From Guillardia theta CCMP2712 (taxonomy: Eukaryota; Protista; Cryptophyta), in contig NW_005434578.1 in assembly GCF_000315625.1 (NCBI RefSeq), positions 62,001 to 126,000 on the forward strand: a stretch of 64,000 nt of DNA. Reading direction: 5' to 3'. The notes under the pieces are model-generated. The model saw only the letters and a list, made by a program, of their open reading frames with translations, was not told the DNA's origin and searched no databases. Position 1 is the stretch's first letter. Each line of letters starts with the position of its first letter. A program made the translations under genes and the position numbers. Positions 7,306 to 58,511 of this stretch are shown piece after piece.

Positions 7306-8727
7306 CGTAACTGTCCGAGAGTGAACCTGGAAAGCGTGCGTAAGCTACCAAACCGTATCTTGCAAGGTATCTGCCAGAGAGGTGTCTTACCGTGTACAGC
7401 ATCCTATTTGCAAGAGGGTTAGACGACTTGCCGAACCTTGAGAGGGCGGAAATCAGACACGGTCTCCGATTCCTCGCAAAGGGGGCGATGGAGGGTAGGG
7501 GATTGTACGAAAGCTCACCTGGATCTGCGGGGAAGGGGAGTGTCCCTGAGGATGGAAGAGGAGGAGGAGCCCTTCTGCAACCTAAACAAGAGTAGGCGGT
7601 GTGGGGGTAGAATGCGAGAGAGATATCAGACAGCTAGCGGAGAAACGTTTTCGCTGCTGTATCAGGGGAGAGCATGGAACAAGGGACGTCCTTACGGTCT
7701 TCATAAAGGAACCAGCACCCCTTGAGAGTAGGTGGGGGGTAGGGGGTGATTTTCTTTTACTATGAGAGAATGGCGCCAAGGCCATCCCCATGTAACAAGA
7801 TTTTCTTCGAGTCTTCATATATGAAAAAACGGCACTGCTTGATTTATCGTAAGCAAAACTCACTTGGGTGCGTATCACGTACCCATATCCTTCTTGTACC
7901 CCCGTTATAGGTTGATTACTACCCCTCCATCCGAAAATCTTCATCTACGGGATTTCTCGATTTTCAAGCTCATATTTGAACTCGGCTCTTCAATATTTCA
8001 AATAATACCTCATTTATTTTTCATTGCTGAAGAATAAAGTGTGTACATGCCCGAAATCTGCTTTCGTTCTCTTCACAGCTGGCTTAGTTTAGTTCATCTA
8101 AACCCGGGTTTTGCCAAACCTGTCGATCGCCCTGGATTAGTTTGCTCTTTGCTCCCTGATCTAAACCTCTGAGGCAGCCTTCATTCGTGGGCAACGGCTT
8201 CAGTTGTTGAGTAAAAATGAGGGATGCTGGTCGACCATCTTGCTGGTGTCCAGCTCCAACGGCCACAGTTCGGTACTGTAGCCATGGCGATAGAGACATG
8301 CGATGCTAGAGGTAGAGGGCTCGCGGTTATGGTGAGAGAGAGAGAGAGAGAAGGGACGATGCTGAACTACTGAGAGGAGGCACTTAAGAGACGTGGGTGG
8401 GACAGCGCTGACCGGGTTCAAGCTCCATCTACTGCGTCGAACTTCAAGAGTGTATAGCGAGAGGAGGAGCGAGAGGAGGAGCAGGATCGAGAAATGTTCT
8501 AGTGGGTGTAGTGTGACCTTGACAAACGTTGAGACATGCTAGTTGCATCGTCAGCTAATGGAATGCAACGAGTGAGCAAACGAAATGCAAGCAGTACTCA
8601 GATACTCTTGGATGTGCAGACCTCAATGTTGTCTTGATCCAATCATCGAGTCAACACGCAAGCAGGAAGGTTCTAACTCTTATCCTGAACCAGCATCTTT
8701 CATTCCATTCATCGTGGAGGAGCAGCG

Positions 8728-14957: not shown

Positions 14958-15739
14958 GTTTCCGAGCTTCCAACAGCATCTAGTCTGCGATCAGGGTTCA
15001 GGAATCTTAAAATCTGATGAAGTGCACGCGAGATAACAAACTCCAACAAATTTCGAAGTCAATCCACTTGCTTGAGAGCAAGATTTTTCGCGAAGCACGT
15101 CAAATCACAAGATATCAAACAAGCTTGGCGTGTTCAGGCAATTCAAGTGTACAAAAGAGGTTGAGAGTAACGGATCAGATGACAATAACGAAGTTAGCAA
15201 AAGATCTCTTATTAAAGTGTTAAATCAACACAAATATATTCAGAGAATTAAGTCAGCATAAAATGGGACTCCGCACGAGTTTTGAGGGTCGTGAGGTTAC
15301 TATGTCAGTGAAGAACAAGGGCTCAGACATGCGCCAACTTGTCAAGTTGAAGAAAAGCAGCCATCAGGGCATGCATTCTCCTCGCGCCGCCCTGGCTACG
15401 TACATCGCTACATCTCTTCCCGAGTCCCCCGATCCACCCGCTCCGCAGCTACAAACCAATCGTCTACGTTCTTCAATGCCCCTCTATTGAAATATGGTGT
15501 CCTCCTCCTCTTATTAGATATATCTCTGAGGCGGAGTTTTTTCGGTCCGGGCTTTGCCTGGCCTGGTCACACCGGCTGTTCGACCCGGCATGCAGGAATC
15601 ACTGCCGCAGCCCGCCAATAGTGAAAAGAGTCCGCACATGTATTGATATTAGGATAACAGGAAGGCAGCAATCAAACATAGACAGTCCACGGCTCCCGAA
15701 AAGAGGTTCCTGTCCTGCTCCTTTTTTTGGCCTCAAGGG

Positions 15740-17420
15740 GTGGGGGTTTGATGACAGGAATAGGGTGGGATGACAGACACCGGTCCTGATACGTTACACC
15801 GTGAAGGGGGTTCCTACCACACCCCCAAAATCTCCTGCGAGGTGTACTACGGGTGATGGGAGATTTTGGGGAATAGAACGGGTTTTACCGATATCCGTCC
15901 CTACTCCGTGGTCTAAAGGGGTGGGTCATAAATTTTTGGATTGGTTCTACGATGGTAGGGTAGCAATCATATGGTTGGGTGGGCTAGGGTTCCGGGGGAA
16001 ACCCACAGCCGGGTGGGGTGGGACATGGGACCAAGGGGTACGCAACTCCCCTGTTGGGGGAAGGGGTTAAAAAGGCTCCAAAAGTACCGGGTAGTTACAG
16101 ATGAAAGTATCATCATTTCATGGGGTAGTGACACGATTGGTAGGTGGTTTAAACCGACAGTCCGTGACGGGGTGGGGAACGAAAAGTCATGAAACACAAA
16201 TAACGGATTTGTGTTTGTAACGGAAGAAAGATATGAATATTTTGAGAATACGTCACCTTGAAAAGTTGAATATTTCAGCAAGAATATGAAGTATGTTCAT
16301 TCTCTTTGAAAATAGAAGACCGTGACGTACCGGCACTTCTGTCCCTCTCCGCACCGGTCCTGGCCGTCAGGAAATCGGATATATACAAGACTTTGTACTG
16401 CATTCTCACAGAACACGTACAAATGCTGATACAAATATGACGTGGTAGTAAGTGTACCTTTCGATCGAAAATGTGTATATAAATTTGGTACAAAAATAAA
16501 GCCATGGAAGAATAGGGCAGGCGCTTTGCTGGTAATGTTTGAAATCTTTGTACAAAAGTACTACGTTTTAAGCGCTAAAACGGTCCCAATAAATATTTTG
16601 GAAATTTCAAAAACAATTTTACTTCTACACCCCTCCGGTCGGATATCTGTACGGGGGTACCTTATTTCGATATTATATTGTTTTTAAAAACACCCCACCC
16701 CCAGCCGTTACGCGCGTGCATCACACCGGTATCACCTGATACAAACTGTGGTACCTTTCGGAGGAAGAGATGTACCAAATTTACTATTTGTCGGAAAGTT
16801 GTACAGTTGGTTTCTACATAGCTTAATATGTACTGAAAACAAGAAACACAGTACTAACTTTGTGGTATTATTTAACTACCAGGAGACCATTTTGGTCCTA
16901 GAGAGTCTTTGTAGAGAGGTTCTAGGAACACTACCCTGAGTTGGGATTATCTCCCTGCAATGAAATTCGGTGGTGGGGGTGGTTACCCCCTACCCCCTTC
17001 TCCCGCATCTTCTTCTTCATGGTCAAACGCCGCAGTCCAGGAGGAACAGAATCGGAGGCGGGCCAACCCTTTATTCCATATTGAGTTGGCTTGTCTGGTC
17101 TGAGAATATGTTCAGACCAGACTATACGGCGTGTATTCCAGTACAAATTCAAATTCTATCTGTACCTGCGTTTGAATTCTCTCGGAGGATGGGAGGGGTA
17201 CTGCTACGCCAACTTTTTTTGAAAAGGTGATTCTATCTTCAGGGTGGGTGGAAACGATAGCCTTGCACCGGTGGAGGAAAGTACCCCTTGGGCAGTTAGG
17301 GGTGGTCAGAGGGAACACCCCCCTACCCCCCATTGGGCCCTTGTTTGGCTCGGTTTCTGTCCTCTGGGGGTCATCCGCCTCCCGCCAACCCGCCTGCCTG
17401 CTCGCATGCACTCGGCTACC
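15740..17420. other. GpC-depleted intergenic tract (G-rich left end, AT-rich middle, C-rich right end)
   Basis: Hand count 15781-16200: 6 GpC vs 19 CpG. GGGT/ACCC/GTAC abundant. Confidence 0.75.
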
Positions 17421-17920
17421 CTCTGTCACTTGTTTCTTGCTTTCCTCTCTTGTTTTTGTGTTGTTTCCATGTGTTCTGATGTATTCATTGTATGAATGTC
17501 GTTTTTGTCCTGATTCGAGATCAATTTTCAATCGTTCTCGTCTTGTAATTTGCATCACCACATTGCGCCCTGAACATTCTGGTCAATTTGTGTGGTCTGA
17601 GGTCGTGCGATTCTGCTATAGTCTCTTGATTACACCCGCTCTCTCTTCTGCTATTGATACCAGGCTGCTTATTTCCTGTTTGCCACGCTGAGATCGCCGA
17701 AATCCAGATGTCTTTGCCGTGGAAATGCGAATTTCATCATCCTCTTCATACCCACTTGATCTTGATGCGATTTGATTTCTATGTTTGTTGCAATGCTTTG
17801 ATTTTGTTCGATTCCCCTCCTAACAAATTTCTGACTTTTCTGTCGTAGTTTTTGGCTACTCAAATACACATAGATCCAATCAAATCTCGTTTATAATTTT
17901 CTCAAGAACAACCACTCAAA

Positions 17921-22079: not shown

Positions 22080-22300
22080 CAGTCGCCTCACCGAGTCAGC
22101 CGGGCCCCGGCCGGGCAGGGCGGCGCCTCACTACTGTCCCGCCGCGGGCTTTGAGCCGGGCTGTACGGTACGGAGGCTCCGTAGCCAGGCTCAGGCTAGT
22201 AACTGAGTAGTTGCCGTTACTGATCTGGAGCCGGACAACCGTACGGTAGACAGCGGAACTTTGAAACTTTAGGCCCCTGTACAAGATTTGAATGAAAGTT
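22080..22300. other. Short GC-rich palindromic island with AACTT border
   Basis: GAGTCAGCCGGGCCCCGGCCGGG, GTACGGTACGG, GGAACTTTGAAACTTT. Confidence 0.65.
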
Positions 22301-28040: not shown

Positions 28041-28254
28041 ATATGCTCGTCGCGTCCTCTTTTTCTCGCTCTTGCCTCCCCCCGCCCCTCCTCCTCCTGT
28101 ACGTCCTTCCTCAAGCATCTTTGTTTGGCCTGGATAGTTCGGAGAAGGCGGAGGAAGGTGGTAGGGTACTCTTAGTGAATGGAGGGAATAAAGAGGGTGA
28201 ATAGAAATGGAATAAGGGGTAGGGGGTACACCAGCAGGGAGGTGGGGTTTAGGA

Positions 28255-28720
28255 CGGCACGGTGGCACTGCCGCAGGTTCGGCGCCCGGCGTCCGGCCGG
28301 CCGGGCCCCGGCGGCCCAAGGCGGCAAGCCGACTCCCGACTCGGTCCGGCCGGGCGAAGTTTCGAGCCGCGCCGTCGGAGGCCGGGCTCGGAGCTTGGGC
28401 CCGCCGTTGGACTGAGGCTCAGTGATGATGCGTCCCAGCCGGCCCCGTACTCACCGTGGCACTGCAGGCTGACTCGCCGTCAGGCTCGGGCCGTGACCCG
28501 GCGGCGCCGCACTGCTGAGCCCGCGGCCCCGGCCGGGGCCGGCGGAACTTGGAACTCGAACTTCATACTCCGGATTCTCGGACTCCCGGGGGCCGCCGCC
28601 GCGGCCGCCCGGGGGCCGGCGTGTAAGCGCCGGGCCCGGGCGGTCGCACGGGCCCCGCCGGGCCGGCCGCGGCGCCGGGTGGCGAGATCGGATCAGTAGT
28701 GCCGCTACTAGGCTAATGAT
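28255..28720. other. GC-rich palindrome-dense island
   Basis: CCGG/GGCC runs, GGAACTTGGAACTCGAACTTC at ~28544-28564. Confidence 0.75.
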
Positions 28721-29043
28721 GCATACTGACTCGATGATTTACAGAGACATGCGGACTCCCGAGTCTGGCAAAGGACATTCGGGCCGCACTGCACAACTTG
28801 GCAACAATCATTTGAATACTGAAAGTGAAAATGCTTGACTTCGTCATACAGTATGTCTAGATCGGTGATCCAACCCCGGGCATTGAGATTTCAGCCAAGT
28901 TCAAAGTATGACTGCAACCTGGTCGATGGTACGAAACGAGGCGATCAATGGCATTCAGTTTACAGTGACTGATGATTCGTGAAATGGGCACTCGTCCGAT
29001 CCATTGAGAGGAGATCTGCGCGCTAGACGGTGCAGGCAGTGGC

Positions 29044-29457
29044 TTCAAGCGCTGGATTGCTGACACCGATGTAGAAAGGGTGGAAACTGAGCAAGGAGAC
29101 GGTCATTGAATTCCTGAGATTGCCCAAGTTGACGATCCAGCTTGCGTTCAAGGTCTTCCTGACGCTGCTGGGCATCCTTGCGGGCATCTGCATTCTGTTG
29201 CAGGAGTAAAGCAAAAAGTCAACGAAGAGATGCTTCTTTGTCGCTGGTGGTAGGAGAGTTTCGACCCGAAGACATCGCAGAGATGGGCTCTGCGACAGGG
29301 GTGCGCGAAGCAAATGCACCAGAGGCTGAATCACGTGAAGCATGTGGAGCTGGAGACTCCTTAGCGAAGACAGACGGTGCTGGTACAGGCGCAAAACAAC
29401 ATGGGCGAGCACAAGAAGCTGAATGGGAATCCTGCTGTGGTCGATCTTGCATGCCAT
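29044..29457 (-). CDS. Small hypothetical protein or gene fragment with coiled-coil end
   Basis: Two exon-like segments, the second NADARKDAQQRQEDLERKLDRQLGQSQEFNDRLLAQF. Confidence 0.3.
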
Positions 29458-29693
29458 GATTGTATCATCATCTCTCGTTACGGAAAAAGGACGGGGAAAT
29501 TGGAATTGTTCAGCTCCAACATTTCATTGGATTGAAGTTGGAACAGAAATTTGTTCCGTAGATCTCGAAATCCTTCTTTCACTGGTCAGAGCCTTACACA
29601 ATCTGTATACAAGAGGTTGAGACTATCGAAAGGTAGCGCGACATTGCTAGTTTTAAATCATTCTGATGTGCAATGACAGGCCCGGGCGAATGA

Positions 29694-30234
29694 TTGAAAC
29701 ACAGAGGGTTACAACACATTACAACGATGGTTTCCTGTAGGGAAGTGGTCAAACTACGAGCGAATATTCATCCCAGTCCATATTTGGGGTACCTGAACAA
29801 GGACAGCACGGGAAAGATTGAAGGCATGCCGCAGTGCCGCGAGTTTGATGCGGTTGTAGAACCATGTATCAAGGTGATCAAGGAGAGACACGACAGAAAA
29901 CAAAGTCGGCGACCTATCCTGATCGGTGAAAAAGATTTCTTGCGATATGAATGGCAGCAAAAGGGATTACAAGGAGGAAAGATCTGGCAGCAGGAATACG
30001 TTGCTTCCAACAAGATCAGTAGAGAAAATCCACATCCCTGATGATATTCACCAAGCTCCCTGGATACAGACCCCCCAACAAACTGATTCCGTGTCATGTG
30101 GCATATTTCTGTGCGCTATAGCTGACTGCTTGTCTGGTAACATGGGAGTGAATTCATTTGGCCAAGGAGACATCGACGAGATCCACAAGGCTATAGAAAC
30201 TTTATTGAGAATCTTGTATTTATGTAAGAAGTGA
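29694..30234 (+). pseudogene. Ulp1/SENP (peptidase C48) C-terminal fragment split over two frames
   Basis: KDFLRYEW...W in one frame, then TPQQTDSVSCGIFLCAIADCL...FGQGDIDEIHKAI in the next, matching PQQxNxxDCGxF...FxQxD. Confidence 0.6.
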
Positions 30235-30559
30235 ACGCATGCGCAGTGTAGGCGACTGATACATTCAATATGAGCTCACATGGCAAAGGAGTGTTACAAT
30301 GTGGATGGATGGACAATGACATTACAATGTCTATCGTGGCATTGCCTGTGACAGATACATCGAAGTTGCCATCACTACGTTTGCCATCGATTGCTGGAAG
30401 TTGACCCCATAACCTGCAATAGGAAAAATACTGCAGAAGATGATCTCATAAGGAGTAGTAGCACTGATCGGTAAAAGATGATGTCACAATGTAGACAACT
30501 GCAGAATGTCCCCCGGATTGTACACCCTTACACAAGTTTGCAACATTGCTGTCCATGGC

Positions 30560-32305
30560 GCCCCGATATGGGGGGATAGAGGGAGGGACAGGCATTCCCA
30601 CAAAGTGATCAAGTACCCCTACAGGATGTGGTATTTAAGGCTTCCAGAAGGGGGTACTGTAGTCTGTCACCCGCCGCTAGAACGGGGTACGACGACCACC
30701 CCCATATACAACTCAATTTGTTACATACTAGAAGCACGAGGTGGGGGGTGGGCGTGGGGGTGGAATGAGAAGTGGTGGAGTCAATGCAGGGGGTAGTGCT
30801 AGGGAAGCTGTGGGGTCGAATACAAGAATACTTTTCTTTTAAAAATGTTGTTAAACATTATTGAGTCGTACCAGAAAGTACCCACCCTCTGTAGACAAAA
30901 TATTGTTGTTTTGACCCGTTGTGATAGAGAGGAATATGCTTTAAAATTTATTGATTAGAAAACCTCTAACTTTATTAAAACTACCAGAAAAATAGTTATA
31001 ACTGTTCTTGTAAGCTACAATAATTTTTTAAGTCCAGGACAGCAAGTATAAAAAGTAGTAGCCGTATAACCTTTTTTTAATTGTTACTCCTACAGCCCGA
31101 CCCACTCTACACCTACTAAAGCTACCCCCACCCCCATCACTGTTCTAGACAGAAGCTCACCCCTTTAATCAACCCCCCCTGTCTCCTCCTCCACCACCCT
31201 ACCTGCCACTACCCCTACCTCCTCAATTTCTCTATGCCTAATCTTGAGACTGCCACGTACCTCTATTCGCCACCCCTGACCCCTTACACTATCAAACTCA
31301 CATTCCTTAATGCCACCGGTGTTTTCCCCTTGAAGTACCCTTGTTATCAAGAGCTGAAAACCCTCAGGTATCTTCTCCACCCCTGGCTCTCAATCCCAGT
31401 TCAGTGACTCATTGATTGTGAAACAACCCCTACCCACAAATACCACCCTTCCTGGATCTGTACCCCTCGATTCATATATGAATACCCCCTTGTTTCAGCC
31501 TATCACTCACCCTGTGAGCTAGGGTTTGAACTGATGCTTCTATAACCTGCCAACTAATTTATAAAGAACTCTGATAGTTCGGAGTGAATCAAACCTATAA
31601 AGATTTTATATGACCGTTTCTATTATTTCTGGCATGCTTCACCTGCCTGCTGCTGATGTGAATCAAAATGACCAAATCAGTTGGCGATGGACGCATTTCT
31701 TGTATATAAAACACTTTTATTGAGTTTAATTATATTGTTAATTGACAAACATCGATGCTTGTTTCACACATCGATACAACTCCTACTGTAAAAGTACTTA
31801 TAAATTCTGAACTGCTACAGTTCTCGAGCGATTTCGGTACAAAATATATTTTGAGATCTGTACAGAGATTAGATATGTTGTTGTTATAATACCAATCTAT
31901 TTTTGAAAATATATTTAAAACTTCATCGGATCCGAAAAGACAAGATTTCATCTTGCAATGTCTATGGACCCCCATGTTCTGCCTTCAAAGCGCATTCTTG
32001 GATGCTACCCTACCTGCCCCTCACCAAAATGTATACCCACCCTCATAATCAACTAGTTGTCATCCCCCTTGGGATGGTACCCCCAAATTAAACAATGAAC
32101 CCCTCAATGAAGGATTAGACCGGACTTTTACCCTCAATACTCCACAGGAATTTGGGGTCATCATTACCCAATGTCATTTTATACCGGTACGTTCAGTCCA
32201 GTACCCACCATCTCATAATCCTGTTTATAACTCACCGGTCATAGCAACGATTTTGACCCACCCTTCTACGCAACCACTCTACCCCACCCCCACCCATTAG
32301 GGACC
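30560..32305. other. GpC-depleted intergenic tract containing a decayed coding-like relic
   Basis: G-rich 30720-30820, C-rich 31080-31500 and 31960-32300. Only 2 GpC in 32041-32300 by hand count. Confidence 0.7.
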
Positions 32306-32751
32306 TACCTCTGAAGCATCCTCTCCTCCATGCAGGCGTGATCTCGTCGGCATCCAGCAGCTCCAACCCCCCCTCGTGCTCGCGCCCGGACACCTTCCGC
32401 TCCTCCCAGGCTGCTGGTCGGTCTTATCTTCACCAGCCCCTCTAGATCAATCGCCTTCTGATCTCTGAGGCCGTCAGGGTGCTTGCCGCGGAACTGCAGA
32501 GGATATTTCTTACACCTGCTCTGCAAAAGGGGATCCGTTGAAGTTCATTCCTTGTTTCCAATCGGCGACTTTGAGAAGGGATTTCAAGTCTTTGGGTGCT
32601 TGTATTGACACTGGCTGTTGCATGGTTTGCATTTGAGACAAATCTTCCTCCAGCATTCCCCCAAAGAATCAGAAATCGTCGAAGGCAGACAACTTGAACC
32701 TGGAATATATCACGTGAAGACATTGGATGAACTGATCTGGAAGTTGTTACA

Positions 32752-36699: not shown

Positions 36700-37429
36700 A
36701 ACCTTCCTCGCTTCTCCTCCTAGAGCTCAGGCAAGAAATCTTTGTGCCTGCATGTCATCGGGGGATCCTCGTGTCCTGCCCCCTGTCCGCTACCTGAACA
36801 TCCCACAGTGAGCAACAAGAGCATCCGGTCGCCTCCTCTGACCGCTCTATCCAGGTGTCAATCTTGAGTGGGGAGCGAAGAGGCTGAGGAATCAGAGCGC
36901 AACCAGAGGCCCAAGACTGAACCCTGAAGGAACGGGTTAGCGAAGGAGACGGCAATCTGCGGACGGAGAGTCGATGGAACTTGGAGACATGGGGGAACCA
37001 AAAGGTGACTTAAGGGAGGTGGAGGGCACTGGGGCAGACAATGAAAGCAAGAGAAAAGAGAGAACAGTGATGAGAATGAGAAGGCAGACGAGGAGGAAGT
37101 TGTCGTAATCATCGTAATGTATGAGAAAAGAGATGATGATAACCATTACAACAGGGGGGAACTCATGTGATTTGAGCGAGCAGGATGGAAGATGTACGCA
37201 AGCAGAGAGAAAGACAGATGACCTCAGAAACAAAATATGATGAGGGAAAAAGAGCAAGAATCATGACCGGCAGGTCAAGCGACGAGGAGTTGGAGAGTGT
37301 TCACAAGCAAGAAATCAGAAAATCGTCAAGACAGAACTACGTTTGGTGAAGTAGCAAGCAAGTCCTGAGAGGGAGGATAAAAGGAGGAGCAGAAGCCGGA
37401 GGAGAAGGAGATGGTGAGCGAGAGGGAGA

Positions 37430-37746
37430 TGGAGAGCAAGAGCAAGAGGGAGAGCAAGAGCAAGAGCAAGAGCAAGAGGGAGAGCAAGAGCCAAGAGCGA
37501 GAGCGAGAGCGAGAGCGAGAGCGAGAGCAAGAGGGAGAGCAAGAGCAAGAGGGAGAGGGAGAGCAAGAGCAAGAGGGAGAGCAAGAGCAAGAGGGAGAGG
37601 GAGAGCGAGAGCAAGAGGGAGAGCAAGAGCGAGAGCGAGAGCGAGAGCGAGAGCGAGAGCAAGAGCGAGAGCAAGAGCGAGAGCAAGAGCGAGAGCAAGA
37701 GCGAGAGCAAGAGCGAGAGGGAGAGCAAGAGCGAGAGGGAGAGCGC
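37430..37746 (+). repeat. Compound hexamer microsatellite (GAGCAA/GAGCGA/GAGGGA)n
   Basis: About 310 bp of tandem GAGNNA units. Confidence 0.95.
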
Positions 37747-40372: not shown

Positions 40373-41451
40373 ATTGCTCGGCTGTGGTGGAGGGGGGTAT
40401 GGTTGATTTGGATACCCGCCTGAGGGGTAGTCCCCGGGAAATCGAGCAAGAATTTTGAAATAAAAGCTAAAGAAAGATCCCTCCGGACAATGTAAGGCTC
40501 TGTAAAGCCTTCTTCTTTGTCACAAGCAGCTGCTCGCCTGCGAATTGGATTACGTGATGTCAGATTCTGGTCAAGAAAAGATGGAAAGATGGAAAACCAA
40601 TGCAACAAATAGAATGTGATGTTCGAGAGAAAGATATATTTGAGCAAAATTTCACGTTGACAAACATCCAAAGTACGTGATCATGTCGACGCAACAGATC
40701 TAAACTAATACGACGCCTTGAGCTTTCTGAATCCGCGTTCATCGTTCAAAACGGATAAAGCATTAGATGCATATGGCACGGAACATAAGAATGTAGCGCA
40801 ATCAATGATGTGCATCGTACTCTACATCTTGTGTCGAAACAAGACAATGTTGCTGGATGTGGCCAAACACATATCGATGCGACGGGGGAGACACAAACAC
40901 AATTCAAAATGAACAAACGTGAATCAGACAGCAAACATGAAGATCACTGAGCTGAGTTCCGTCAATCTCTCAATTTCGAGGCATAATGGAAGAAGAGGGA
41001 GGGAGGTAGAAGGACGCAAGATGGGCCTCGAGCCATCGGGTGCGAGCGTTAGTTTGCGAAGGGCTTCATGGTTTGAAAGGAGGAGCGGACGAAGATAACA
41101 AAAACTATTGAATAGGAGAGGGGGTAGGAAGCAGAGGGGGGGTGGTAGGAAAGAAGGGTAGGAGACAAATAGGGCAGTGGTAAGAGAAAGGGTACTGGGG
41201 GTGGTAGGACGGTGGTAGTAGGGAGCAACGAGGGAATAAATAGGAGGGTAGGTGGGACAGGATGGGGAAGGATAGGAGAACGCAATTAGTGGGTATGGGG
41301 TAGCGATCTACAAAAGGTGGGGTCATCAATGGAGTCAAGGTAGGGTAGGGTAGTCCAATTAGGGTAGCAGTTTTATTTGGTACCTAGCTGTATCAGATCC
41401 CAATACAAATATAAATATATTCGGTACCAAGCTTTTTAAAACCTTTCAAAG

Positions 41452-41483
41452 GCCAAACACGGGTGGCTCCACCCGTGTTTGGC
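41452..41483. repeat. Perfect 15-bp inverted repeat (hairpin)
   Basis: GCCAAACACGGGTGG-CT-CCACCCGTGTTTGGC. Confidence 0.95.
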
Positions 41484-41667
41484 TCACAACTCCACGACTG
41501 TTTGGGGTATTCGGGTAGGGGTACTTTTATTAGTAAAATATCTTATAAAAGGGTCTTGTAGTTGGGGGTCGTTGCTTGGTTCGACGTAGCAATCTTTAAT
41601 TGCAAACCGTTACTTATATTGTAGTAACTCTATAATCATCGTTCTGGTACTGTTTAAAACTATCACA

Positions 41668-42720
41668 GGCTGAGTCAGCCGGGCCCGCCGGCTCCCGCGG
41701 CGCCGAGTCGCGGCTCACGGTCAGTCCAGTGGCCGGGCCTCTCACTGTACGGTCACGCGGGACGGTCCGACGGTCACGGTCGGACGGTCAAACAAACTAC
41801 AGTGGGCCGGCCATCGAGTCGGCGCCCGACCGTGACTCGCCGGGCACTGCTCCGGGGGCCGCCCCCGGCCGCGTCGGATGGCAGTCTTTCCGAGTTCTCT
41901 ACTACTCACCGTCGGAGGACACTGACAACTGTTTGATCCGACTCGATCCGATCGGATCACTGCGCGGCCAAGCCCGCCGTTCGCTGAGGCGAGCCAGGCT
42001 CGGAGTCGGAGGCTTGACATTCTGGAGTCCGGCCCGGGCGCACCGACAGTGTGCCAGGTGACTCGCCTCCGTCACTGGACTCCAATTCAATCCGATCTGG
42101 CACCGTGGCCCCGCGGGCCCCGAAGTTTGCCAGACTCACAGAGTCACGGTCAGCACTGTGACCGTCGGACGGCGCCGGGCACGGCCCGGGCTGTGACTTC
42201 ACGGACAGTGACGGTGGGGCCGGCACCGTTCAACGCCGGTCAGGTTCACGACTCAGGCTGTCGACCGTCACGGTCAACCTACACGGTCACGTCGACCGTA
42301 CGGTACCGTACCGGCAGTACCGGCGGGCCGGGCCCGGCCGCCCCGGCGGGCCGCGGGACGGTACGGTCAGTGACGGCAACCACCGGCAGTGCCACCGTGG
42401 CACTGGCGGGGGGGCCCGGCCGGACCGTCCCGGGTGACGCCGGGCCGGAGTCACCGCCCCCCCCCCCCGGGCCCCGGCCTCTGAGACGGACGGTCATCGG
42501 ATGATCAGCGGGCGCCGGTCGGTACTATAGGCGGCACGGCACGCCGGGCACGGGCCGGTATGCGGCGGAAGTTGGCTGAGCCCGGCCCGGACCAGTGGGA
42601 CTCCGGAAGTCCGCCCCTCAGGTAGTACCGCCGGTCGTACCGGGCCTTGTCTCAGTACTGAAGTTACTGATTTTTAACTTAACTTTGAGTAAAGAAGTTA
42701 CTGTCGGTTTTCAAACTTTT
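41668..42720. other. GC-rich palindrome-dense island with right-hand AACTT/AAGTT cluster
   Basis: Numerous short palindromes and ACGGTC micro-duplications; lies between divergent genes. Confidence 0.8.
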
Positions 42721-42917
42721 CGGCACCCACCGTGGCAACGTCACTATCATCCTACCTGGCACCCCTCCCCTCCCCACCCCCACCCCCCATCCGCCCCCCC
42801 TTCCCACCCAAGTCATCATATTCAACCCGGGGTCAACTGGTACCCCTAGCTCAAATAGGATCCCCCCTACCAGTACCCTACCCAAGGTCCGACCATTAGC
42901 GGACTGCGAGGACAGCC

Positions 42918-44635
42918 ATGCGGGGGGCGCGGGACTTACACAGGGCACCATCGAGGGAGGATCTTTATTCGAGCCAGAGGAGCATCGACTCTGTTGCTTC
43001 CAGATCCCTTCTGACTGGAAATGGAACGGGCATGAGTGGTGTGGGTATATTTTTCCAGCAAGAGGGCGATGGCAAGGTCTACGTGAGAACCATTGTCAGC
43101 GGAGGTTCTGCAGAGAGAGATGGTGAGTTGGATGGTTGTAGTTCATATCAAAATCGACTTCTCATAGTATACATGTTGTCATGATGAACTACCTCCATGT
43201 ACATTTCTGCTCCTAAGTCTGGTTTCAAACAGGAAGAGTTCGGGTTGGCGACGTAATGTGCGGGGTTGACGGTAGAGATGTCATAGGCGAACCAGTCAGC
43301 GTCCTTAGAAGCCTGTTGCTTGGACATGAAGGAAGCACGGTTTAGTTGCCAAGTTTATGAAATCTCATCTCAAGTATGGTCTCTCTGCAGGTTGTACTTA
43401 CTTTTGCAAGGGCCGTTGAAGCTGGTATGGACGCCGAAACTTCTGACATGAACTCTGGAAACACGGTATGTGAGCAGTCTAAGATCTCGATCACAAACAC
43501 TTTGGTGACTGATAGGCACTTATGCGATTCATCAGGTCATTGCAAAGTTTGACGTGGAGCTTGTGCGGGGCAGTCCAGAATATTTCAACAAAATGGACTC
43601 AGCACGAAAGTAAGATCTTGCTGTTTGAGACGATTCTCTTGGAATGATGCAACGCAGATATGAAATTGAAATGCAAGACCTGAGACATCAACTCAAGCAG
43701 ACGTTGAGTGAGGAGAAAGAAATCTCTGAGGAGGTCGAACGGGTCAGACGTGTGCTTCAACTTGAGAGGGGGGCGTCTGCCAGGCGAGAAAAAGAATTAG
43801 AAGAAATCAGATCTTCCCATGCTCGAGAAGTAGCGTCTTTGTCAGAATCTTTGCGAAGAGCTGAACAATCTCGGCGCGAAGCAAGCGGGCGGCTTGCTCC
43901 TGTGAAATCAAGGGAGCAGGAGCTTTCAGAAGAGCTTGCTCGAATGAAAGAGAAAGACCGGTGCTCATTCTGCGATTCTGCCTGAAATATTTCTCTGAAG
44001 TTCATTGCACCTCAGATTGCGCAAAGAGTACGTAGAAGAACTTCGAAAGAGACATGAGGAAGAGACTTCAAGGTTGGAGGCACAACTTGCCAAAGAACAG
44101 CGAGCCAGGAGAGAAGAGCAGGTGGTTTTGAATTTAACTAAGCAAGGGCGGCTTATGAATTCAACACAGGCTGCCAGAATCGAGGTGGAGCGTGAGCTGG
44201 AAAAGTCCAGAAAGGAGCTAAAGAAGGAGCTAGATATTCAAAGATCAACTGTTGACCAAGACAAATCGTACCGCGAGCAAGTCGAATCGTGAGTCATGTC
44301 TCATTGCTATCATTGCAAACTGAAGAATCATAGATCGAAAAAGAAACTGCGAGACGTGGTTGAGACTATGGAATCTCTGTATGCCATGATGAAAGACTTG
44401 GACGACTGGAACAATCACGTTCAGGACGGACAACTGCATACGAAGCTGGTGAGTAATCGTCACACGATGAGCAATGATTCCAGGTATCGAATTTTTTTCC
44501 AATGGTTTGTGGTTGACGTTTAGCTAAGATGGTGAAGGAAAACTTTGGCCTCTAGTTTTTTGAAATTCCAATGGAACAAACGAGAATGGAGAACAAAGAT
44601 CAAGTATAGAAAGATGAGAGACACATTCTATTGAG
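42918..44635 (+). CDS. PDZ domain + coiled-coil protein, multi-exon
   Basis: SGVGIFFQQEGDGKVYVRTIVSGGSAERDG-RVRVGDVMCGVDG...LRSLLLGHEGSTV; E/R/K-rich heptads. Confidence 0.8.
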
Positions 44636-47328: not shown

Positions 47329-47759
47329 GGGCCGACTGTTGTTTGTTGTAGGTACATGACATGGTGTTTGCGGACAGCCAGGTGATAGTTTGATATCTTC
47401 ACGCCTCCAGTGTGTCTTGCTTCAATGCCAACTAGAACCATGAGGGAAGGGTGGAGACTAAGGGAGGGGGAGGGTACGTGGGGGGGGGATGGGGGGGAGG
47501 GCGGCCCCGCAACTCAAATGCACTGAGGCGGGGTACTGTATGTTCGGGTGACAGGGTAGGGATCATGTGGTGTGGAGGCTCATGATAATGTTTCGATTTT
47601 GCAAACTTTTATCCTCCATCGTTGGTGACACATGTGTTTCTAGGGAGTTCCGTTTGAAAGTACATTCCCCGATCATTAAACTTAGTAAACCTGAAACTCA
47701 GTTGAGACCGAACCGTCCTTCTCTGTTTAGTTGTGGTAGTTACCGACGGTAACTTCTCA

Positions 47760-48020
47760 GAAGACTGATCAGTCAATGGCACTGGGCGGTCCCGGATCGG
47801 ACTCGATTGAGTCGGACGGTACCGTCACGTGACGGCTGGCCCGACTCGCCGTGATCGGGGTGACAGCCGTGATCCGTCGGACTGTCCGATCGGACCGTAC
47901 TACGGTACTCCCGGCCCGGCGGCCACCGTGGCACCGTCACGGGAGCGGCTGAGCGGCCGGCGGCCCGGTACGGTACGGTAAACCGTGCTGAACTCCGAAC
48001 CGGGCTAGTAGCCGCTTTGG
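47760..48020. other. GC-rich palindrome-dense island between divergent genes
   Basis: GACGGTACCGTC, CCGTCACGTGACGG, CCGATCGG, CGGTACGGTACGG. Confidence 0.75.
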
Positions 48021-48478
48021 CCAGTCAAAAGCTGCAGGCTGGTCAAAAGTTCGATGCGACCTACGGGGCTATTGATCCCTCAACAAAGAGAGCAGCCCCG
48101 CTCCTACCCCACCCCTCGCTCCAACTACATGAAGGACCATCCTGTGCTGTGTACCACCCCCTTCATGATATGAGACTACCCACCCTAGGCTAATGCATCA
48201 AATTCAGGTAGTTCCGAGGCCCAAGTCGCCAATGTGCCCTGCCCTCCCGGAGTCCCTACCCACCCTCAACCCCATTTTGCCACCACCCCACGTACTTAAA
48301 TCAGATAGCACCTTGCAAGGTGCGTTGACAACCAAGTATCCGTACTATGTGAAAATTACCTTTACCTCAATTAGATTATCTTGTACCTATACCTCATTCT
48401 TTGTTTCAAGCACGAAGTACCACCTTACCTGTGAAAACACCGTTACCCGACCCTACCGCCTACACCTCATTTTCCCCC

Positions 48479-48486
48479 TATAAAAG
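48479..48486 (+). promoter_or_regulatory. Candidate TATA box
   Basis: TATAAAAG 48 bp upstream of the oxidoreductase ATG. Confidence 0.5.
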
Positions 48487-48526
48487 AAGGGACCGAAACT
48501 TCTCTGCCGTACTGCTCTGTGCTGTC

Positions 48527-49534
48527 ATGCCCGAGAATCGTCAACTGCTCCTCCGTCGCCGTCCCTCCGCTGCTCTCAGCCAGAAGGATGTAGAGATCGT
48601 CTCCAACGCCACTCCCAGCCTCAAGGATGGCCAGTTCCTCGTCAAGAACCTCTATGCCTCCGTCGATCCTACTCACAGGATCTGGATGTCTGAAGACGAC
48701 CAGTACCTTGCCCCTGTTGATCTGGATGCTCCCATGAGAGCGATGACGTATGGTGTGGTAGAGGAGAGCAAGAATCCTTCCTTCCCTGTGGGAGCTCATG
48801 TGTTGGGCATGGGCGGCATTCAGCACTACTATGTTGGAGACCCCGCTGCTGACCCTGGCTTGACTGTTGCCAAGGAGATCGAGGGACTTCCAAACACCGC
48901 ATGGCTGTCTGTGTGCTCTGTGATCATCGGGCTTACTGCATGGGTTGGAGTGAATGAGATCTGCAAGCCCAAGCAAGGAGAAACTTTTGTTGTTAGCGCT
49001 GGAGCCGGAGCTGTTGGCTCACTCGCCGGACAGCTTGCTAAGCTGCGTGGCGCACGTGTGATAGGGTTTGTGGGATCTAAGGAGAAGGCCGATTGGATTG
49101 TGAATGAGCTTGGATTTGATGGCGCGATCAATTACAAGACTGATGACATGTTGACGAGGTTGAAGCATCTTGCTCCCAACGGCGTTGACAGCTACTTTGA
49201 TAACACGGGAGGCCCTTCGACCGAGGCTGTTCTCCGCTGCTTCAATAACAATGCTCGCATTGCCCTCTGCGGCATCATCTCGGGCTATAACACGGGAGAC
49301 TTTGCGCTCAAGAATTTCCAGATGCTCCTCCATCGTCGTGTGAACTTGCAGGGCTTCATTTGCCTCGACCACCTCGACAAGTACGAGCAGGCCCTTGCGG
49401 AACTTATCCCTTTGGTAAAGGACAAGAAGATCAAGTACCTGGAAGATATTCAGACTGGCATCGACAACTACCCTGACGTTGTGAACATGTTGTTTGAAGG
49501 ATCCAACAAGGGAAAGCTCATGCTCAAGTTCTAA
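48527..49534 (+). CDS. NADP-dependent alkenal/prostaglandin reductase (MDR family, PTGR/CurA-like)
   Basis: YASVDPTHRIWM, GLTAWVG, GETFVVSAGAGAVGSLAGQLAK, GVDSYFDNTGG, RIALCGIISGYN, GSNKGKLMLK. Confidence 0.93.
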   Translation: MPENRQLLLRRRPSAALSQKDVEIVSNATPSLKDGQFLVKNLYASVDPTHRIWMSEDDQYLAPVDLDAPMRAMTYGVVEESKNPSFPVGAHVLGMGGIQHYYVGDPAADPGLTVAKEIEGLPNTAWLSVCSVIIGLTAWVGVNEICKPKQGETFVVSAGAGAVGSLAGQLAKLRGARVIGFVGSKEKADWIVNELGFDGAINYKTDDMLTRLKHLAPNGVDSYFDNTGGPSTEAVLRCFNNNARIALCGIISGYNTGDFALKNFQMLLHRRVNLQGFICLDHLDKYEQALAELIPLVKDKKIKYLEDIQTGIDNYPDVVNMLFEGSNKGKLMLKF

Positions 49535-50829: not shown

Positions 50830-51297
50830 CTACTGGACCGAGCAAGCATCCTTTTGCTTGGATAAATCGCGCCAAGGAAACTTGTCTCCATAAGGGTCTT
50901 CAAGGATCACCTTGCGGCCCTGCTTCGAGAGGATCTTGCCATCCCGTGGATCGACCAGTACCAACAATGGCATGCTATCATGGCCAATCTCACGCTCTAT
51001 TGCCTCTTTGATGTCCCGCTGACTGAAGGGCAGCGCGAGCCATGGCATCTGGTGAAAGTAGTGCTGGAAGTCCCTTTCGGTCCGATCCCCAGAGATCAAG
51101 ATCACCTCCATCTTCTTGCCCTGTGAGTTCATCCGGGAGTAGACGTCGATCAGCGAGGGCGTGAAGCACTTGCAGGGTGTGCACCATTCAGCAGAGAAGT
51201 AGAGGCCGACCACCTGCTTGTCTTGGAGAGTGTCGAGTGGAACGAGGGATCCTCTGGGGTTCAGGAGACACGTATTTTCGCCGAAGAATCTTTCCAT
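50830..51297 (-). CDS. Nucleoredoxin/tryparedoxin-like thioredoxin
   Basis: VGLYFSAEWCTPCKCFTPSL, EVILISGDR, MPWLALPF, DPYGDKFPW. Confidence 0.92.
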   Translation of the reverse strand: MERFFGENTCLLNPRGSLVPLDTLQDKQVVGLYFSAEWCTPCKCFTPSLIDVYSRMNSQGKKMEVILISGDRTERDFQHYFHQMPWLALPFSQRDIKEAIEREIGHDSMPLLVLVDPRDGKILSKQGRKVILEDPYGDKFPWRDLSKQKDACSVQ

Positions 51298-51654
51298 CCT
51301 GAGAGTGTAGAGGTAGAAGGCTCTGTCAGACGTCGGAGAGGGTAGTCGGAGGAGCTGGAGAGGGATGGGAGGATGCGTGTAGGTGCTGGAGGGGATGGAA
51401 GGAGCGCGTGGGGTGCAGGCGGAAGAGGCCTTCCGATGTATTTAGAGGGAGTTTGCCTCTTACTGAGAGGGTATTTTTTCAGTCATACGGAGGGGTGGTA
51501 GTGTCGCTGAACGCAACTTTCAGTGCCCCGTAATAATGACCATTGTTGACGCCTCAGACCCACCCCTCCTTTGGTAGAGCTGAAACACTACAACGCAGGG
51601 GTCAGTGCAAGAGGAATTCTGCTCAGGGAAACCGTTGAATAATTGATAATAAAG

Positions 51655-52345
51655 CCTGTGACTGTCGGTGGCCGGGAGCGGGATCCGCGGCTCAGCTGCC
51701 GCCAGTCACCCGCGGCGGCGGGCGGCGGCCGGGGCCCGGGGCAGCCCGGCCGGCACTCAGCGGCGGCGGCGCCCGCCGTCCGTCTCCGAGTGACCCGCCG
51801 GAGCCCGGGCTACGGTCCCGATCACGCCAGTGACTGACGGACGGTGCAGCCGGCCGGGATGCCGGGTGGCTGGCGGACCGTCTGAAGGCCGCGCAGGCTA
51901 GCACCCGGGGGCCCCCCGGCCCCGGGCCCGGCGCCCGGCCCGGGGGGCCCGGAGTGACGACCGACGGTGCGCCGGCCCTGGCAGGCTGACTCGGAGCCTC
52001 GGAGTGGCACGACCAACGCCGTCACGCCGGTGGGCCCGGGAGTCAACGGCCCCAGTGGAGGGCCCCCGGGCCCGCCTCGTACTCCCGGGTCCGGCCGGGA
52101 CACTCGGAGGCTCCGAGGCTCCGAGTCCTGATTGTCCTCCGGGAGTCCAGGACTCACTAAGTCACTCTGCGGCGGCCCCTTCCGTGAGTCGCAGTGAGCC
52201 GCAGAGCGGCCGGTGCCACGCCGGTGACGGTGAGCCGGCCCGGCCGGGCGGCTGCCGCTGGCCAGCCTCCGTGCCCGAGGCCCGGGGGCCGGGCCCGGCC
52301 GCCCGGGGCCCGGCCAGCCGGGGCTGACCGTACAGTGGCGCCTAT
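51655..52345. other. GC-rich palindrome-dense island between divergent genes
   Basis: CCCGGG/GGCC runs, TGACT/GAGTC words, no credible ORF. Confidence 0.75.
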
Positions 52346-52467
52346 GACCTGCACCAAATTAAGCCTTCTTTTTGCAAATTGGTAGTACGTTTTGTACCAG
52401 GAGTTCAATTCTATATTTATTTAATTTGAGTGGTTTGTTTGGTAGCGCCTTTCCAACACAGGGGGAC

Positions 52468-53948
52468 ATGAAGTCGATGGCGCGATGGTGGGGAGTTGGC
52501 GGCAAGGAGAGAGGGCGACGGAAGGAGGCGATGGCGGAACAAGATAGCCATCATGCAAACTACCATCCCCCTTCATCTGCTCTCCGCTCCTCGTCTTCGT
52601 CTCTTCATGTCCATTCCGCCTCCCATGGACCTGCCCAGCTCGCGGGAGTGGGGCTGGTAATAGGGAAGCGTAAGCAGGGGTACCTTGTGAAGGACATCTT
52701 GCAAGGGACAGGGGCAATGCTAAGCGGGATGCGAAGAGGGGACCTCATCGTGCAGGTACGTATCTCGACCACTTGGTGTCATCGACACTTGCTGGCTCAG
52801 GTTTGCGTTGATTCTCTAGCAGGTCAACGAGAGGGACGTGGGTCCTTTGAGCCTGGAGGAAGTGACTAGTGCGATACTCGGACCCGTTGGGAGCATCGCA
52901 AAGTTCAAAGTTATGAGGAATGCGCATGAACGGAACGTGCTGTTGGAGTTCCTCGTGCTGCGGGAGCTCAGAGCTACTCAGGACCCCCTGTTTCAGATCA
53001 AGTGCGAGGGCAACAAGGTGACGAGGTCACACCTCCACCTCCAGTGCGCGCAAGATGGAAGTACGAGAAGTTCCGACAAGAAGAGAGAGGGAGAGAAGAA
53101 GCCAGAAGAAGAGCTAGAAAAGATGGGAGCAAGAAAGATGAAGACAAGCCTAGGGGCAGGGGAAGATCCAGAGACAGAGATAGAGATACAGATTGAGGAA
53201 GAGACAGAGATAGAGACAGAGATAGAGACAGAGATAGCGGAGGAAGTAGGTGGTAGTCTCTTTGCTTCTGGGGTCGGCGAACTTCCTCCTTCTTCAACTT
53301 GTGGTGAGATCACTCCGGATCCACCCTGGGACGGCCATTGGCCTGTTTCTGGAGCCAGCAGCCTCGTCGACGTCGGTGTGGATGTGCTCGTGCTCGAGGA
53401 GTGCGGAAGCTCGTGGAAGGCCTGCCGGCTGCAGCTGACGCGAGAAGGAAGACTTGTGCTTCCTGGGCACAGTCTAGATGGGAAGCTGGTGGTATGGGCT
53501 CAGCCGCAGCTGGAGATGTACCGCCCCGACATGTCGAGAGAAGACTTCTCGATGATGGGAAGAAGGATGTGCGTGATGGTAGAAGGGGAACACCTCATCG
53601 CACACAGCCGCCATGGTGCGATCAATGCAGTGAAGGCTGAGAGGTTGCATGTGATGGCGTTAGACTCGTCGACACGGGACAGGTACAAGTTTGCTTTCAT
53701 GATTGTTGTCCTGCACTCCTTCATGTTTTATTCCTTCTGTCTTCTGTCGATCAAGTGATGCATCTTCTTATTGGTTTGCTACCTCAGATATGTTGAGGAA
53801 TTCATCGCAGTGGTTCAACGCCGTGAGCTGGGAGCGCAAGGTAGCCGAAAGCACTCAGGATGTTATGCCCCTCTGTAGTGAAGGAGCAGCGCAATGGCAA
53901 CCACAGCAGATCAGCAGCGAATGTGAGACGATGCCACAAACAACATGA
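52468..53948 (+). CDS. PDZ domain protein with possible PH-like C-terminal region (multi-exon)
   Basis: AGVGLVIG...YLVKDILQGTGAMLSGMRRGDLIVQ-VN...EEVTSAILGPVGS; YWFATSDMLRNSSQWFNAV. Confidence 0.7.
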
Positions 53949-57000: not shown

Positions 57001-57540
57001 TGCGACATCAGCTTGTCAGTACAAAGCAGGCGAGGCCGCTGTGACGTCACCTTGTATCGTGAGGGATGGTGCAACACATCCGTATCGGATTTGGTTTTGC
57101 ATACACTCAGTACTTATGTACTCACTCTGCCAGTCAGTGTTGGGGTAAACGGTGCCATTGCTCTCGTCCTGCGCGCTCAAATGTTCCTTGAGAGCTTTCA
57201 TGATGGGATCATGAAACTCAAATCGATGTCCAGTCTCATTTCTCTCCTGACCATGGCTTCTGCTTCCATTGATCCGACGCGTTGATTCATGGTAGCTTGT
57301 CCAACTCTGCCCCGTATACCCCCGCGGACGGTGTGAACCCTGCTCAACACCAGTCCACGCCCTGCTCGAACCCTCACGTCCTCCAGTGAGCCTCCAGTTT
57401 CCCTCCGTTCTCGCCAGTAAGTCATCATGATCTTCCATCTTTAACTCCATCTCCTCCACCTCCCCTCCTCCTCGTCCTCGTCCTCCTCCCTCCTCCTCCT
57501 CTCCCCCTTGCTTTCCCCGCAGCCCCCCGCGCCACTCCAT
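54060..57540 (-). CDS. Armadillo-repeat protein with long acidic disordered N-terminus (multi-exon, ends approximate)
   Basis: ITACAAITGLSQNHVENSTRLG, EVACQALVHLAMQNQYNKLAIV, DTAAMVIANCA. Confidence 0.75.
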
Positions 57541-58511
57541 GCTGCCTGACGGGTTCGCTTGGACGGGGGTAGGGTAGGCTTTGATGGAGTCTTTGTAGGT
57601 GAGGGTACTTCAAAGGACCCAGTGAATTCCCTTCTTTCAGCTTTCAGAAGGGGGTGGTAGTCCAAGAATGCTGAGAAGGGGTGGGTATGTTGCTGAGTGA
57701 TATTGTATGTCGACTGGCACTACAAATACACGAAAAACTTTAAAATCACGAGTTTTGAAATTGGAAATTCCTCGGTACAGTGAAATAAAATATATTTTGA
57801 AAAATGTACCTGAAAAACTGCACAAAACCCGAGTTGTTGATCTCATGGTCGTAACTTCAGTAGGATTTATCGTATATATCTCTAAAACTCATGAATAAGT
57901 ATTTTATCAAATAAATTCGGTAATGCTGATTGCTTGAATTGGCTCACTTATTTACAGACGAAGGTACATTTAAATATATTGTAAATGATCTACGACTGCC
58001 AAGCATACCGCAATCAAACAATATGTACAAGAATATAAAACTAAGTATATAAATTTAAAAGACAATTTACATGTCACCTTGGATGGGTGACAGAAATTGT
58101 CAGCCCCGATAGAAAGATGTCGCAAACGCTCTATCTATGCGGAGGGGAACATGCATCCAAGATCCTTGCGATAGTTTCTTGCCTTGACCCAGCATGCTGT
58201 GTTGCTCCTTTGCATCCTATCAACAGTCCTTGCACCGATCGTTGTTGTCCGTCCCATTGAACTGTACTTTCCTTTCAGCCTCTTGAAGGGCGCGATGCGT
58301 CCCACACTGATCGATCTGTGCCGAACCCTTCTTACATATCATCTGCTCGAATGCTTCGTCCCATCCCCGTGATCTGCATGATATGCATGGAAGCAGGGTC
58401 TCTGGTTGCAAGTGTTCTCTCACTTGGAAGCGAAAGGAGCCGACGTACCTGCGACGCTTACTCCTTTCGCAGGCTGTAAAATGGTTCGAGGTTGAGGGGA
58501 CTCCAGCTCAC

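What the first reader, a model, noticed from the sequence alone, without database searches (positions are those of the whole stretch)
31165..31520. Fossil ORF whose alanine codons appear to have been mutated at GpC
Seen: the minus strand 31230-31165 reads GAA ATT GAG GAG GTA GGG GTA GTG GCA GGT AGG GTG GTG GAG GAG GAG ACA GGG GGG GTT GAT TAA (EIEEVGVVAGRVVEEETGGVD*). Inference: reverting single changes GTN/GGN/ACN to GCN gives EIEEAAAAAARAAEEEAAAAD, a typical E/A-rich helix. That implies 6 C>T and 4 C>G on the minus strand and 1 C>T on the plus strand, all at GpC, with GAG codons untouched. The frame extends upstream through a few stops (NKGVFIYESRGTDPGRVVFVGRGCF). A mixed, strand-biased C>T plus C>G spectrum resembles deaminase/abasic-site mutagenesis. 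This is the most direct internal evidence for the proposed system.
Basis: partly seen in the sequence, partly recalled or inferred. Interest (0 to 1): 0.85.

Follow-up and report, generated by a model that had tools for sequence, protein, structure and literature searches.

The report
One-strand cytosine loss between algal genes
The supposed fossil gene has no detectable intact relative and its 'all changes at GpC' pattern is built into the way it was read; the sequence is one of about a dozen G-rich-left, C-rich-right tracts between genes of a cryptophyte alga, likely left by cytosine damage on exposed single-stranded DNA.

Summary
The quoted codons and counts are correct, but 'all at GpC' is circular: every GNN codon is one change from GCN, with the C after a G. 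No intact homolog turned up. A relative's contig shares adjacent G/T letters, has frameshifting gaps and 5 of 6 listed changes are non-synonymous. A frame this long arises by chance in such tracts (P=0.26). A fossil ORF is possible (~35%), not shown. What is real: 31080-31560 is one of 12 intergenic tracts, G-rich on the left edge and C-rich on the right edge of AT-rich cores, poor in both GpC and CpG on the G-rich strand. Divergence inside it leans to C<->G (4 of 6), with only 1 of 4 at GpC. Best reading: strand-biased cytosine damage on single-stranded DNA with translesion repair; the polarity fits break resection, not origin lagging strands (inferred). It resembles plant/fungal gene-end GC skew and human break-flank asymmetry. 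No GpC-specific repeat defence is shown: the neighbouring multi-copy Ulp1 relic has no clear GpC excess.

The parts
31165..31230 (-).
   Evidence: Sequence; 18 of 21 codons start with G; periodic beyond shuffles
31168..31494 (-). 109-codon frame with one internal TGA (P0001); coding ancestry not shown
   Evidence: no homolog; look-elsewhere P=0.26; best of six frames by codon score but at the low end of true exons
31080..31560 (-). Right-hand polarised tract: minus strand G-rich, poor in GpC and CpG, rich in GGGTA/GGTGG words; contains the finding
30830..31080 (.). AT-rich core at the G-to-C polarity switch; part has paralogs elsewhere in the genome
   Evidence: extra X1 depth and partial X2/X16 contigs with loose ends
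30590..30830 (+). Left-hand polarised tract: plus strand G-rich, GpC-poor; 30595-30710 has a paralog at about 3x depth
   Evidence: tables 3 and 7
31560..31950 (.). Second AT-rich core
   Evidence: GC 0.34
31950..32400 (-). Second right-hand polarised tract, upstream of the plus-strand gene at 32752
28140..28260 (+). Outer left-hand G-rich tract of the same intergenic island
28260..28750 (.). GC-rich, self-complementary element of an old repeat family; not GpC-depleted
29728..30225 (+). Broken Ulp1/C48-peptidase-like gene in a multi-copy, probably transposon-derived insert without skew
   Evidence: Pfam PF02902 E=0.002, below cut-off; several-fold depth
32752..34788 (+). Intact 678-aa gene bounding the island on the right
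15700..17430 (.). Other island with the same polarity; strongest GpC loss (15730-16160)
   Evidence: P(C after G)=0.048 vs 0.257, p=2e-8; polarity 0.77
41080..42920 (.). Other island, same polarity, GC-rich element inside
   Evidence: Polarity 0.97
47420..48530 (.). Other island, same polarity, between two plus-strand genes
   Evidence: Polarity 0.94; left gene orientation read
57540..58120 (.). Island with only the left G-rich tract and an AT core
51290..52470 (.). Island with a left G-rich tract but no right C-rich tract (exception)
   Evidence: Polarity 0.53
7400..8100 (.). Smaller island with the same polarity
   Evidence: Found by the scan; polarity 0.93

Best explanation
The stretch is one of 12 intergenic tracts that are G-rich at the left edge and C-rich at the right edge of AT-rich cores and lack GpC and CpG on the G-rich strand, likely because cytosines on a repeatedly exposed single strand were damaged and repaired as G (likely by REV1-type translesion synthesis across abasic sites) or copied as T. 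Shown: the composition, the polarity, the recurrence, and a lean to C<->G differences against a relative. Inferred: the direction (C to G on the G-rich strand), the single-stranded intermediate and the enzymes. The strand that lost C is the one whose 3' end points at the core, which is the strand left single by 5'-to-3' resection of breaks in open intergenic DNA; deamination of the lagging template at an origin would give the opposite polarity. Transcription-coupled exposure at gene ends would give the same geometry and is not excluded. The alanine-like codons are a by-product: any G-first triplet run in such a tract reads as 'mutated Ala'.
For: Pooled 12 tracts (3342 nt), G-rich strand: C 0.148, G 0.376, T 0.225 against C=G 0.228, T 0.272 in non-coding background. 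Among non-G letters after G: C 0.17 vs 0.29, T 0.43 vs 0.30, A unchanged (p=3e-11; relic alone p=0.0009), which G-run growth alone would not give. By context: G_A gains T, G_G and G_T gain G. G words lie left of C words in 5 of 7 islands (0.77-0.97), also between two plus-strand genes. Relative X16: C<->G 7 of 22 listed differences over 30850-31640 vs 23 of 233 elsewhere (p=0.007), transitions 4 of 22 vs 120 of 233 (p=0.003); 5 of 13 if the probably paralogous record 2 is dropped (p=0.006). ChIP run X21 depth is 0-2.2 over 30672-32174 against 7-11 in flanking unique bins, as expected of open or unmarked chromatin. Precedent: strand-asymmetric C>G/C>T within 2 kb of human meiotic breaks, ascribed to ssDNA deamination and REV1 (PMC7615360); G-to-C transversion proposed for plant/fungal TSS skew (PMC555766).
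Against: The substitution data are few and unpolarised: 6 listed of 10 differences in one contig of depth 3.6 from a metagenome, which may hold errors or be a paralog. Tracts were chosen after seeing skew and G/T-rich words, so pooled p-values are inflated; other G-skewed stretches also show some GpC loss (odds ratio 0.68 vs 0.40). G gain (+0.15) exceeds C loss (-0.08) against non-coding background, so slippage or other changes to G contribute. TpC is depleted too. One island lacks the right tract and one has only the left. Part of the left tract is copied elsewhere in the genome, so some tracts may be inherited, not made in place. The ChIP dip has no input control and could be library bias, a read filter or a strain deletion. 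No deaminase or break map was found or could be sought; the whole genome was not held.
Confidence: 0.45

Rival explanations
1. The tracts are selected or slippage-built promoter/chromatin sequence: oriented GGGTA/TACCC and G-run arrays (factor sites, G-quadruplex or nucleosome-excluding DNA), with GAG/GTG triplet runs giving the codon look.
For: GGGTA/TACCC: 68 in 11,427 nt of islands vs 45 in 52,573 nt outside (islands were defined partly by such words). Several tracts lie upstream of gene starts with C on the sense strand. ChIP dip. Shared with a relative. G gain exceeds C loss. Strand-preferring factor sites are one of two explanations offered in PMC555766.
Against: No fixed spacing or single consensus. 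The GC-to-GT trade with A unchanged and the C<->G lean in divergence look mutational. The relative differs at about 7-10% with indels across these tracts vs about 5% over 32280-33000. No canonical G3 quadruplex motif in 31080-31560.
Confidence: 0.25
2. The tracts are subterminal motif arrays of decayed non-autonomous DNA transposons, facing inward from the two ends of AT-rich elements.
For: 30595-30710 and part of the AT core have paralogs; a Ulp1-like multi-copy relic and an old GC-rich repeat family sit in the same islands.
Against: No terminal inverted repeat: no left-tract/right-tract pair among the 22 best local alignments, none. The relic itself is about single-copy (X1 depth 67-69 vs 67 baseline).
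Confidence: 0.15
3. One reading: a dead gene with an E/A-rich C-terminus whose GpC cytosines were targeted by a dedicated GpC-specific mutator. Coding ancestry alone, whatever mutated it, is about 35% likely.
For: Best of six frames by codon score (+0.034 per codon); 1 stop vs 7 and 13 in the other minus frames (shuffle p=0.03); core periodicity (P=0.012); simulated decayed exons keep at most 1 stop in 29-36% of trials vs 2% for a fixed non-coding window; 1 GCN in 51 G-first codons.
Against: No homolog. No periodicity upstream of the core; A at third positions 28 of 109, reached by 13% of simulated decayed exons. Look-elsewhere P=0.26 and a 112-codon frame in another tract. Relative not intact. 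CpG loss at least equals GpC loss. No clear GpC excess between copies of the adjacent repeat (11 of 34; only 40 of 340 rows were shown).
Confidence: 0.12

Closest known systems
GC skew (C>G on the sense strand) at transcription/translation starts of plants and fungi (PMC555766), and its extension: C-biased 5' ends, G-biased 3' ends in unicellular fungi (PMC3315797)
   Same: Same geometry (G-rich left edge, C-rich right edge of intergenic DNA), little AT skew, G<->C transversion suspected.
   Different: Here the tracts are 100-500 nt, locally strong (skew to 0.5-0.6), reach 1.2-1.7 kb from the next ATG, and carry a GpC/CpG context. PMC555766 found no C excess in 11 protists; none of the ten names visible in the passage is a cryptophyte.
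Strand-asymmetric mutagenesis in the flanks of human meiotic double-strand breaks (PMC7615360)
   Same: C>G and C>T on one strand on each side of a centre within about 2 kb, CpG C>T, REV1 and ssDNA deamination proposed.
   Different: There measured from rare variants at mapped breaks and a small excess; here a compositional imprint, breaks unmapped, GpC rather than AID/APOBEC contexts.
APOBEC kataegis (features recalled, not from a call)
   Same: Strand-coordinated C>T plus C>G, with a C-to-G switch across a resected break.
   Different: TpC preference there; GpC and CpG most depleted here; no enzyme identified.
Repeat-induced point mutation (RIP) of fungi (features recalled, not from a call)
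   Same: Context-biased cytosine loss near mobile-element debris.
   Different: RIP hits duplicated DNA on both strands, C>T only; here one strand per side, G gain, single-copy target, and the adjacent repeat is spared.

Membership tests
Pseudogene (fossil ORF) | Detectable intact homolog | tested here: not met
   (3 hits, all tandem-repeat proteins, best single match 26.6 bits); own genome not searchable
Pseudogene (fossil ORF) | Residual codon structure along the frame | tested here: inconclusive
   Core periodic, upstream 264 nt not; best frame of six; look-elsewhere P=0.26
Pseudogene (fossil ORF) | Relative keeps the frame or the Ala codons | tested here: not met
   X16 record 3: 5 of 6 listed changes non-synonymous, gaps of 10 listed bases, loose end shares the G/T letters; single low-depth contig, core itself not aligned
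RIP-like / GpC-specific repeat defence | Targets duplicated DNA | tested here: not met
   Relic about single-copy; multi-copy Ulp1 insert unskewed, 11 of 34 differences at GpC vs 24% share
RIP-like / GpC-specific repeat defence | One dinucleotide context, C>T on both strands | tested here: not met
   GpC, CpG and TpC all depleted; G gain; one strand per side
RIP-like / GpC-specific repeat defence | Responsible methyltransferase or deaminase in the genome | not testable with these tools
   No whole genome held
Plant/fungal gene-end GC skew | C excess on the sense strand upstream of starts, G excess at 3' ends, little AT skew | tested here: met
   Tracts before 32752, 48527, 51297, 57540 and after the plus gene ending near 47430; A 0.252 vs T 0.225; gene orientation from ORFs, no annotation
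Plant/fungal gene-end GC skew | Peak at the mapped TSS, genome-wide average, link to expression | not testable with these tools
   No TSS data; one window only
Break-flank ssDNA mutagenesis / kataegis | C-loss strand switches across a centre with resection polarity | tested here: met
   5 of 7 islands 0.77-0.97
Break-flank ssDNA mutagenesis / kataegis | Polarised C>G and C>T excess on the exposed strand | tested here: inconclusive
   C<->G 7 of 22, unpolarised, low depth
Break-flank ssDNA mutagenesis / kataegis | Mapped breaks at the cores | not testable with these tools
   No break map
Non-autonomous DNA transposon ends | Terminal inverted repeats joining left and right tracts | tested here: not met
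Non-autonomous DNA transposon ends | Target-site duplication and shared boundaries among copies | not tested
   Copies not retrievable; only loose ends

The most novel reading that the evidence does not exclude
This cryptophyte lineage carries a single-strand cytosine mutator with GpC/CpG preference and mainly C-to-G outcome that acts around recurrent breaks in open intergenic DNA, strongly enough to rewrite hundreds of bases on each side and to erase old genes such as this relic; the tracts would then be a fossil map of break (recombination) hotspots in an alga with no mapped meiosis.
Probability: 0.15. Interest if true: 0.75.

Novelty: new variant of a known kind. Interest (0 to 1): 0.36.

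Why it matters
The cause of G/C skew at gene ends in eukaryotic microbes is still open (PMC555766 and PMC3315797 both leave mutation versus selection unresolved). Here the skew is strong, local, has a dinucleotide context and switches across definable cores, so strain polymorphisms could test it directly. If break resection is the source, the tracts mark hotspots from sequence alone. As evidence for a GpC-specific anti-gene or anti-repeat system, the finding does not stand.

Tried and rejected
Homolog searches with the relic as it stands (X at its stop): longer proteins, 99 candidates, none at E<=0.1; near length, 2 candidates, none at E<=1; 1.84 billion representatives, 3 hits, rejected as summed weak matches to cadherin-like, fn3 and SdrD repeats; Pfam none; viral contigs 13 stretches, none confirmed; prokaryote genomes 461 stretches, none confirmed; within the window only itself. 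The Ala-reverted reading was not searched and the language-model atlas gave no result for the relic, so a very distant or unannotated intact relative stays possible. Metagenome contigs: 22-nt relic pattern 0 matches; neighbouring gene 22 stretches, none confirmed. No RNA holder listed for 28000-33000, no RNA contig of X6 or X8 on 30850-31640, RNA run X20 near zero there with 6% of the run read: not used as evidence. Rfam: 2 matches below gathering score. Folding 30590-31560 as DNA: z=-2.3 on 20 shuffles, explained by complementary skew. Ulp1 relic: no longer homolog at E<=0.001. Replication-origin lagging-strand deamination rejected on polarity (reasoning). Earlier scan notes: 4 look-ups, nothing. 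Literature searches for this pattern in cryptophytes (listings only) showed no paper describing it; the library lacks most subscription papers.

Full report
Setting. The window is eukaryotic: intron-split genes, a 100-N gap, and ordinary host genes (S41 peptidase, HMG box, PDZ, GTP cyclohydrolase II, kinase). Its oxidoreductase at 48527 falls in a 90% cluster with a Hanusia phi protein, so it is a cryptophyte alga. Guillardia theta is my recalled guess and comes from no call. No whole genome was held.

The observation. Minus 31230-31165 reads as quoted, with 6 GTN, 4 GGN and 1 ACA among 21 codons. The frame is open over 31494-31168 but for one TGA. Runs X1 and X2 match without a difference. 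The claimed substitutions, however, are not observed. Any GNN codon is one change from GCN with the restored C after a G, and ACN-to-GCN puts a GpC on the other strand, so 'all at GpC' follows from the assumption.

Is it a fossil ORF? No homolog was found among 5.8 billion proteins, in Pfam, viral or prokaryote contigs or by a DNA pattern in metagenomes. The three hits among 1.84 billion representatives are long tandem-repeat proteins whose best single match is 26.6 bits. Internal signals are mixed. For: best of six frames by codon score, 1 stop against 7 and 13 (shuffle p=0.03), 1 GCN in 51 G-first codons, a periodic core (P=0.012 over all tracts under a Markov model that ignores triplet slippage). 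Against: no periodicity in the upstream 264 nt (p=0.49; 23 of 29 real exon chunks pass); a frame this long appears somewhere in the 12 tracts with P=0.26, and the tract at 15730 holds one of 112 codons. A relative in metagenome run X16 covers 31209-31348 in one contig of depth 3.6: 6 of its 10 differences are listed, 5 are non-synonymous in the frame, gaps shift the frame, and the loose end that runs into the core shares the window's G/T letters. I put coding ancestry at about 35%.

What is really there. The finding lies in a tract, 31080-31560, whose minus strand is G-rich and C-poor, to the right of an AT-rich core (30830-31080); left of the core the plus strand is G-rich. A fixed-threshold scan for G words and their complements flagged 19 of 213 windows of 300 nt; 17 lie in seven intergenic islands, one is in coding DNA (301) and one is unassigned (5401). 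G words lie left of C words in 5 of 7 islands (0.77-0.97), one lacks the right tract (0.53) and one has only the left. The polarity holds between two plus-strand genes at 47420-48530, so it follows the island and not only gene starts. On the G-rich strand of 12 hand-delimited tracts C is 0.148 and G 0.376 against 0.228 in non-coding background; among non-G letters after G, C falls from 0.29 to 0.17 and T rises from 0.30 to 0.43 with A unchanged. G_A gains T, while G_G and G_T gain G. CpG is lost as much as GpC (retention 0.51 and 0.48 pooled; 0.21 and 0.50 in the relic), TpC less. The tracts were picked after seeing the skew, and other G-skewed stretches show a weaker version.

Real substitutions. 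Over 30850-31640 the X16 contigs differ by C<->G at 7 of 22 listed places against 23 of 233 in the rest of 28000-33000 (p=0.007; that background is mostly repeat paralogs), and by transitions at 4 of 22 against 120 of 233. Without the probably paralogous record 2 it is 5 of 13. In the relic 4 of 6 are C<->G; taken as C-to-G on the minus strand their contexts are ApC twice, TpC once, GpC once. So the C/G lean is supported weakly and GpC exclusivity is not.

A repeat-targeting system? The relic is about single-copy (X1 depth 67-69 against 67), whereas the insert at 28800-30250 with a broken Ulp1-like gene is multi-copy, unskewed, and differs from its copies at GpC in 11 of 34 C-involving places against a 24% share (40 of 340 rows were shown). 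The GC-rich repeat elements inside the islands keep their GpC (0.92 of expectation). This is unlike RIP (recalled features).

Mechanism. C is missing on the strand whose 3' end points at the core. That strand is left single after 5'-to-3' resection of a break in the core; lagging-template deamination at an origin would give the reverse (reasoning from established geometry). Deamination, uracil removal and REV1-type insertion give C-to-G, and copying uracil gives C-to-T (established pathway; its action here is inferred). Human meiotic break flanks show such asymmetric C>G and CpG C>T (PMC7615360; passages and section 4 read). Plant and fungal starts show C excess on the sense strand, with G-to-C transversion suspected and none seen in 11 protists (PMC555766; passages); unicellular fungi add G excess at 3' ends, with C-to-T deamination argued against (PMC3315797; parts 1-2 of 4 read). 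That is the same geometry, so transcription-coupled exposure remains open. ChIP run X21 drops to 0-2.2 over 30672-32174 from 7-11 beside it, and to 1.9 from 6.2 at 28167-28333, matching the tracts and cores; target and input are unknown to me. Selection or slippage of GGGTA/G-run words (G gain exceeds C loss) and transposon-end arrays (paralogs of 30595-30710, but no inverted termini) are the main rivals.

Verdict. Sequence confirmed; fossil-ORF and GpC-only inference not shown; the underlying one-strand cytosine loss is real in composition and recurs through the window. It is a strong, context-biased variant of known gene-end skew; eight literature searches (listings only) showed no description of it in cryptophytes. 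Interest 0.36.

Noticed in passing
window 2620-3150, 12950-13930, 22040-22260, 28260-28750, 41670-42650, 47780-48030, 51660-52340: Seven GC-rich (71%) intergenic elements built from CCGG/GGCC/ACGGT words, internally self-complementary, with weak mutual similarity (an exact 18-mer shared between 42677 and the 13-kb element): an old repeat family or convergent promoter islands.
   Followed up: partly
window 28800-30250: Multi-copy insert with a broken Ulp1/C48-peptidase-like gene; RNA reads of run X20 with paralog letters lie on 29837-30170, so a related copy seems transcribed. No longer homolog found.
   Followed up: partly
window 30672-32174 and 28167-28333: Sharp loss of ChIP read depth in run X21 exactly over the skewed tracts and AT cores; no control.
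   Followed up: no
window 41452-41483 and 17093-17122: Near-perfect 30-32-nt palindromes inside or beside AT cores.
   Followed up: no
window 46671-46837: Five near-identical 33-nt tandem repeats inside a plus-strand thioredoxin-like gene region.
   Followed up: no
window 37416-37745: GAGCRA hexamer array of about 55 copies, strongly purine-skewed but GpC-rich, unlike the tracts.
   Followed up: no
window 10985-11084: Assembly gap of 100 N.
   Followed up: no
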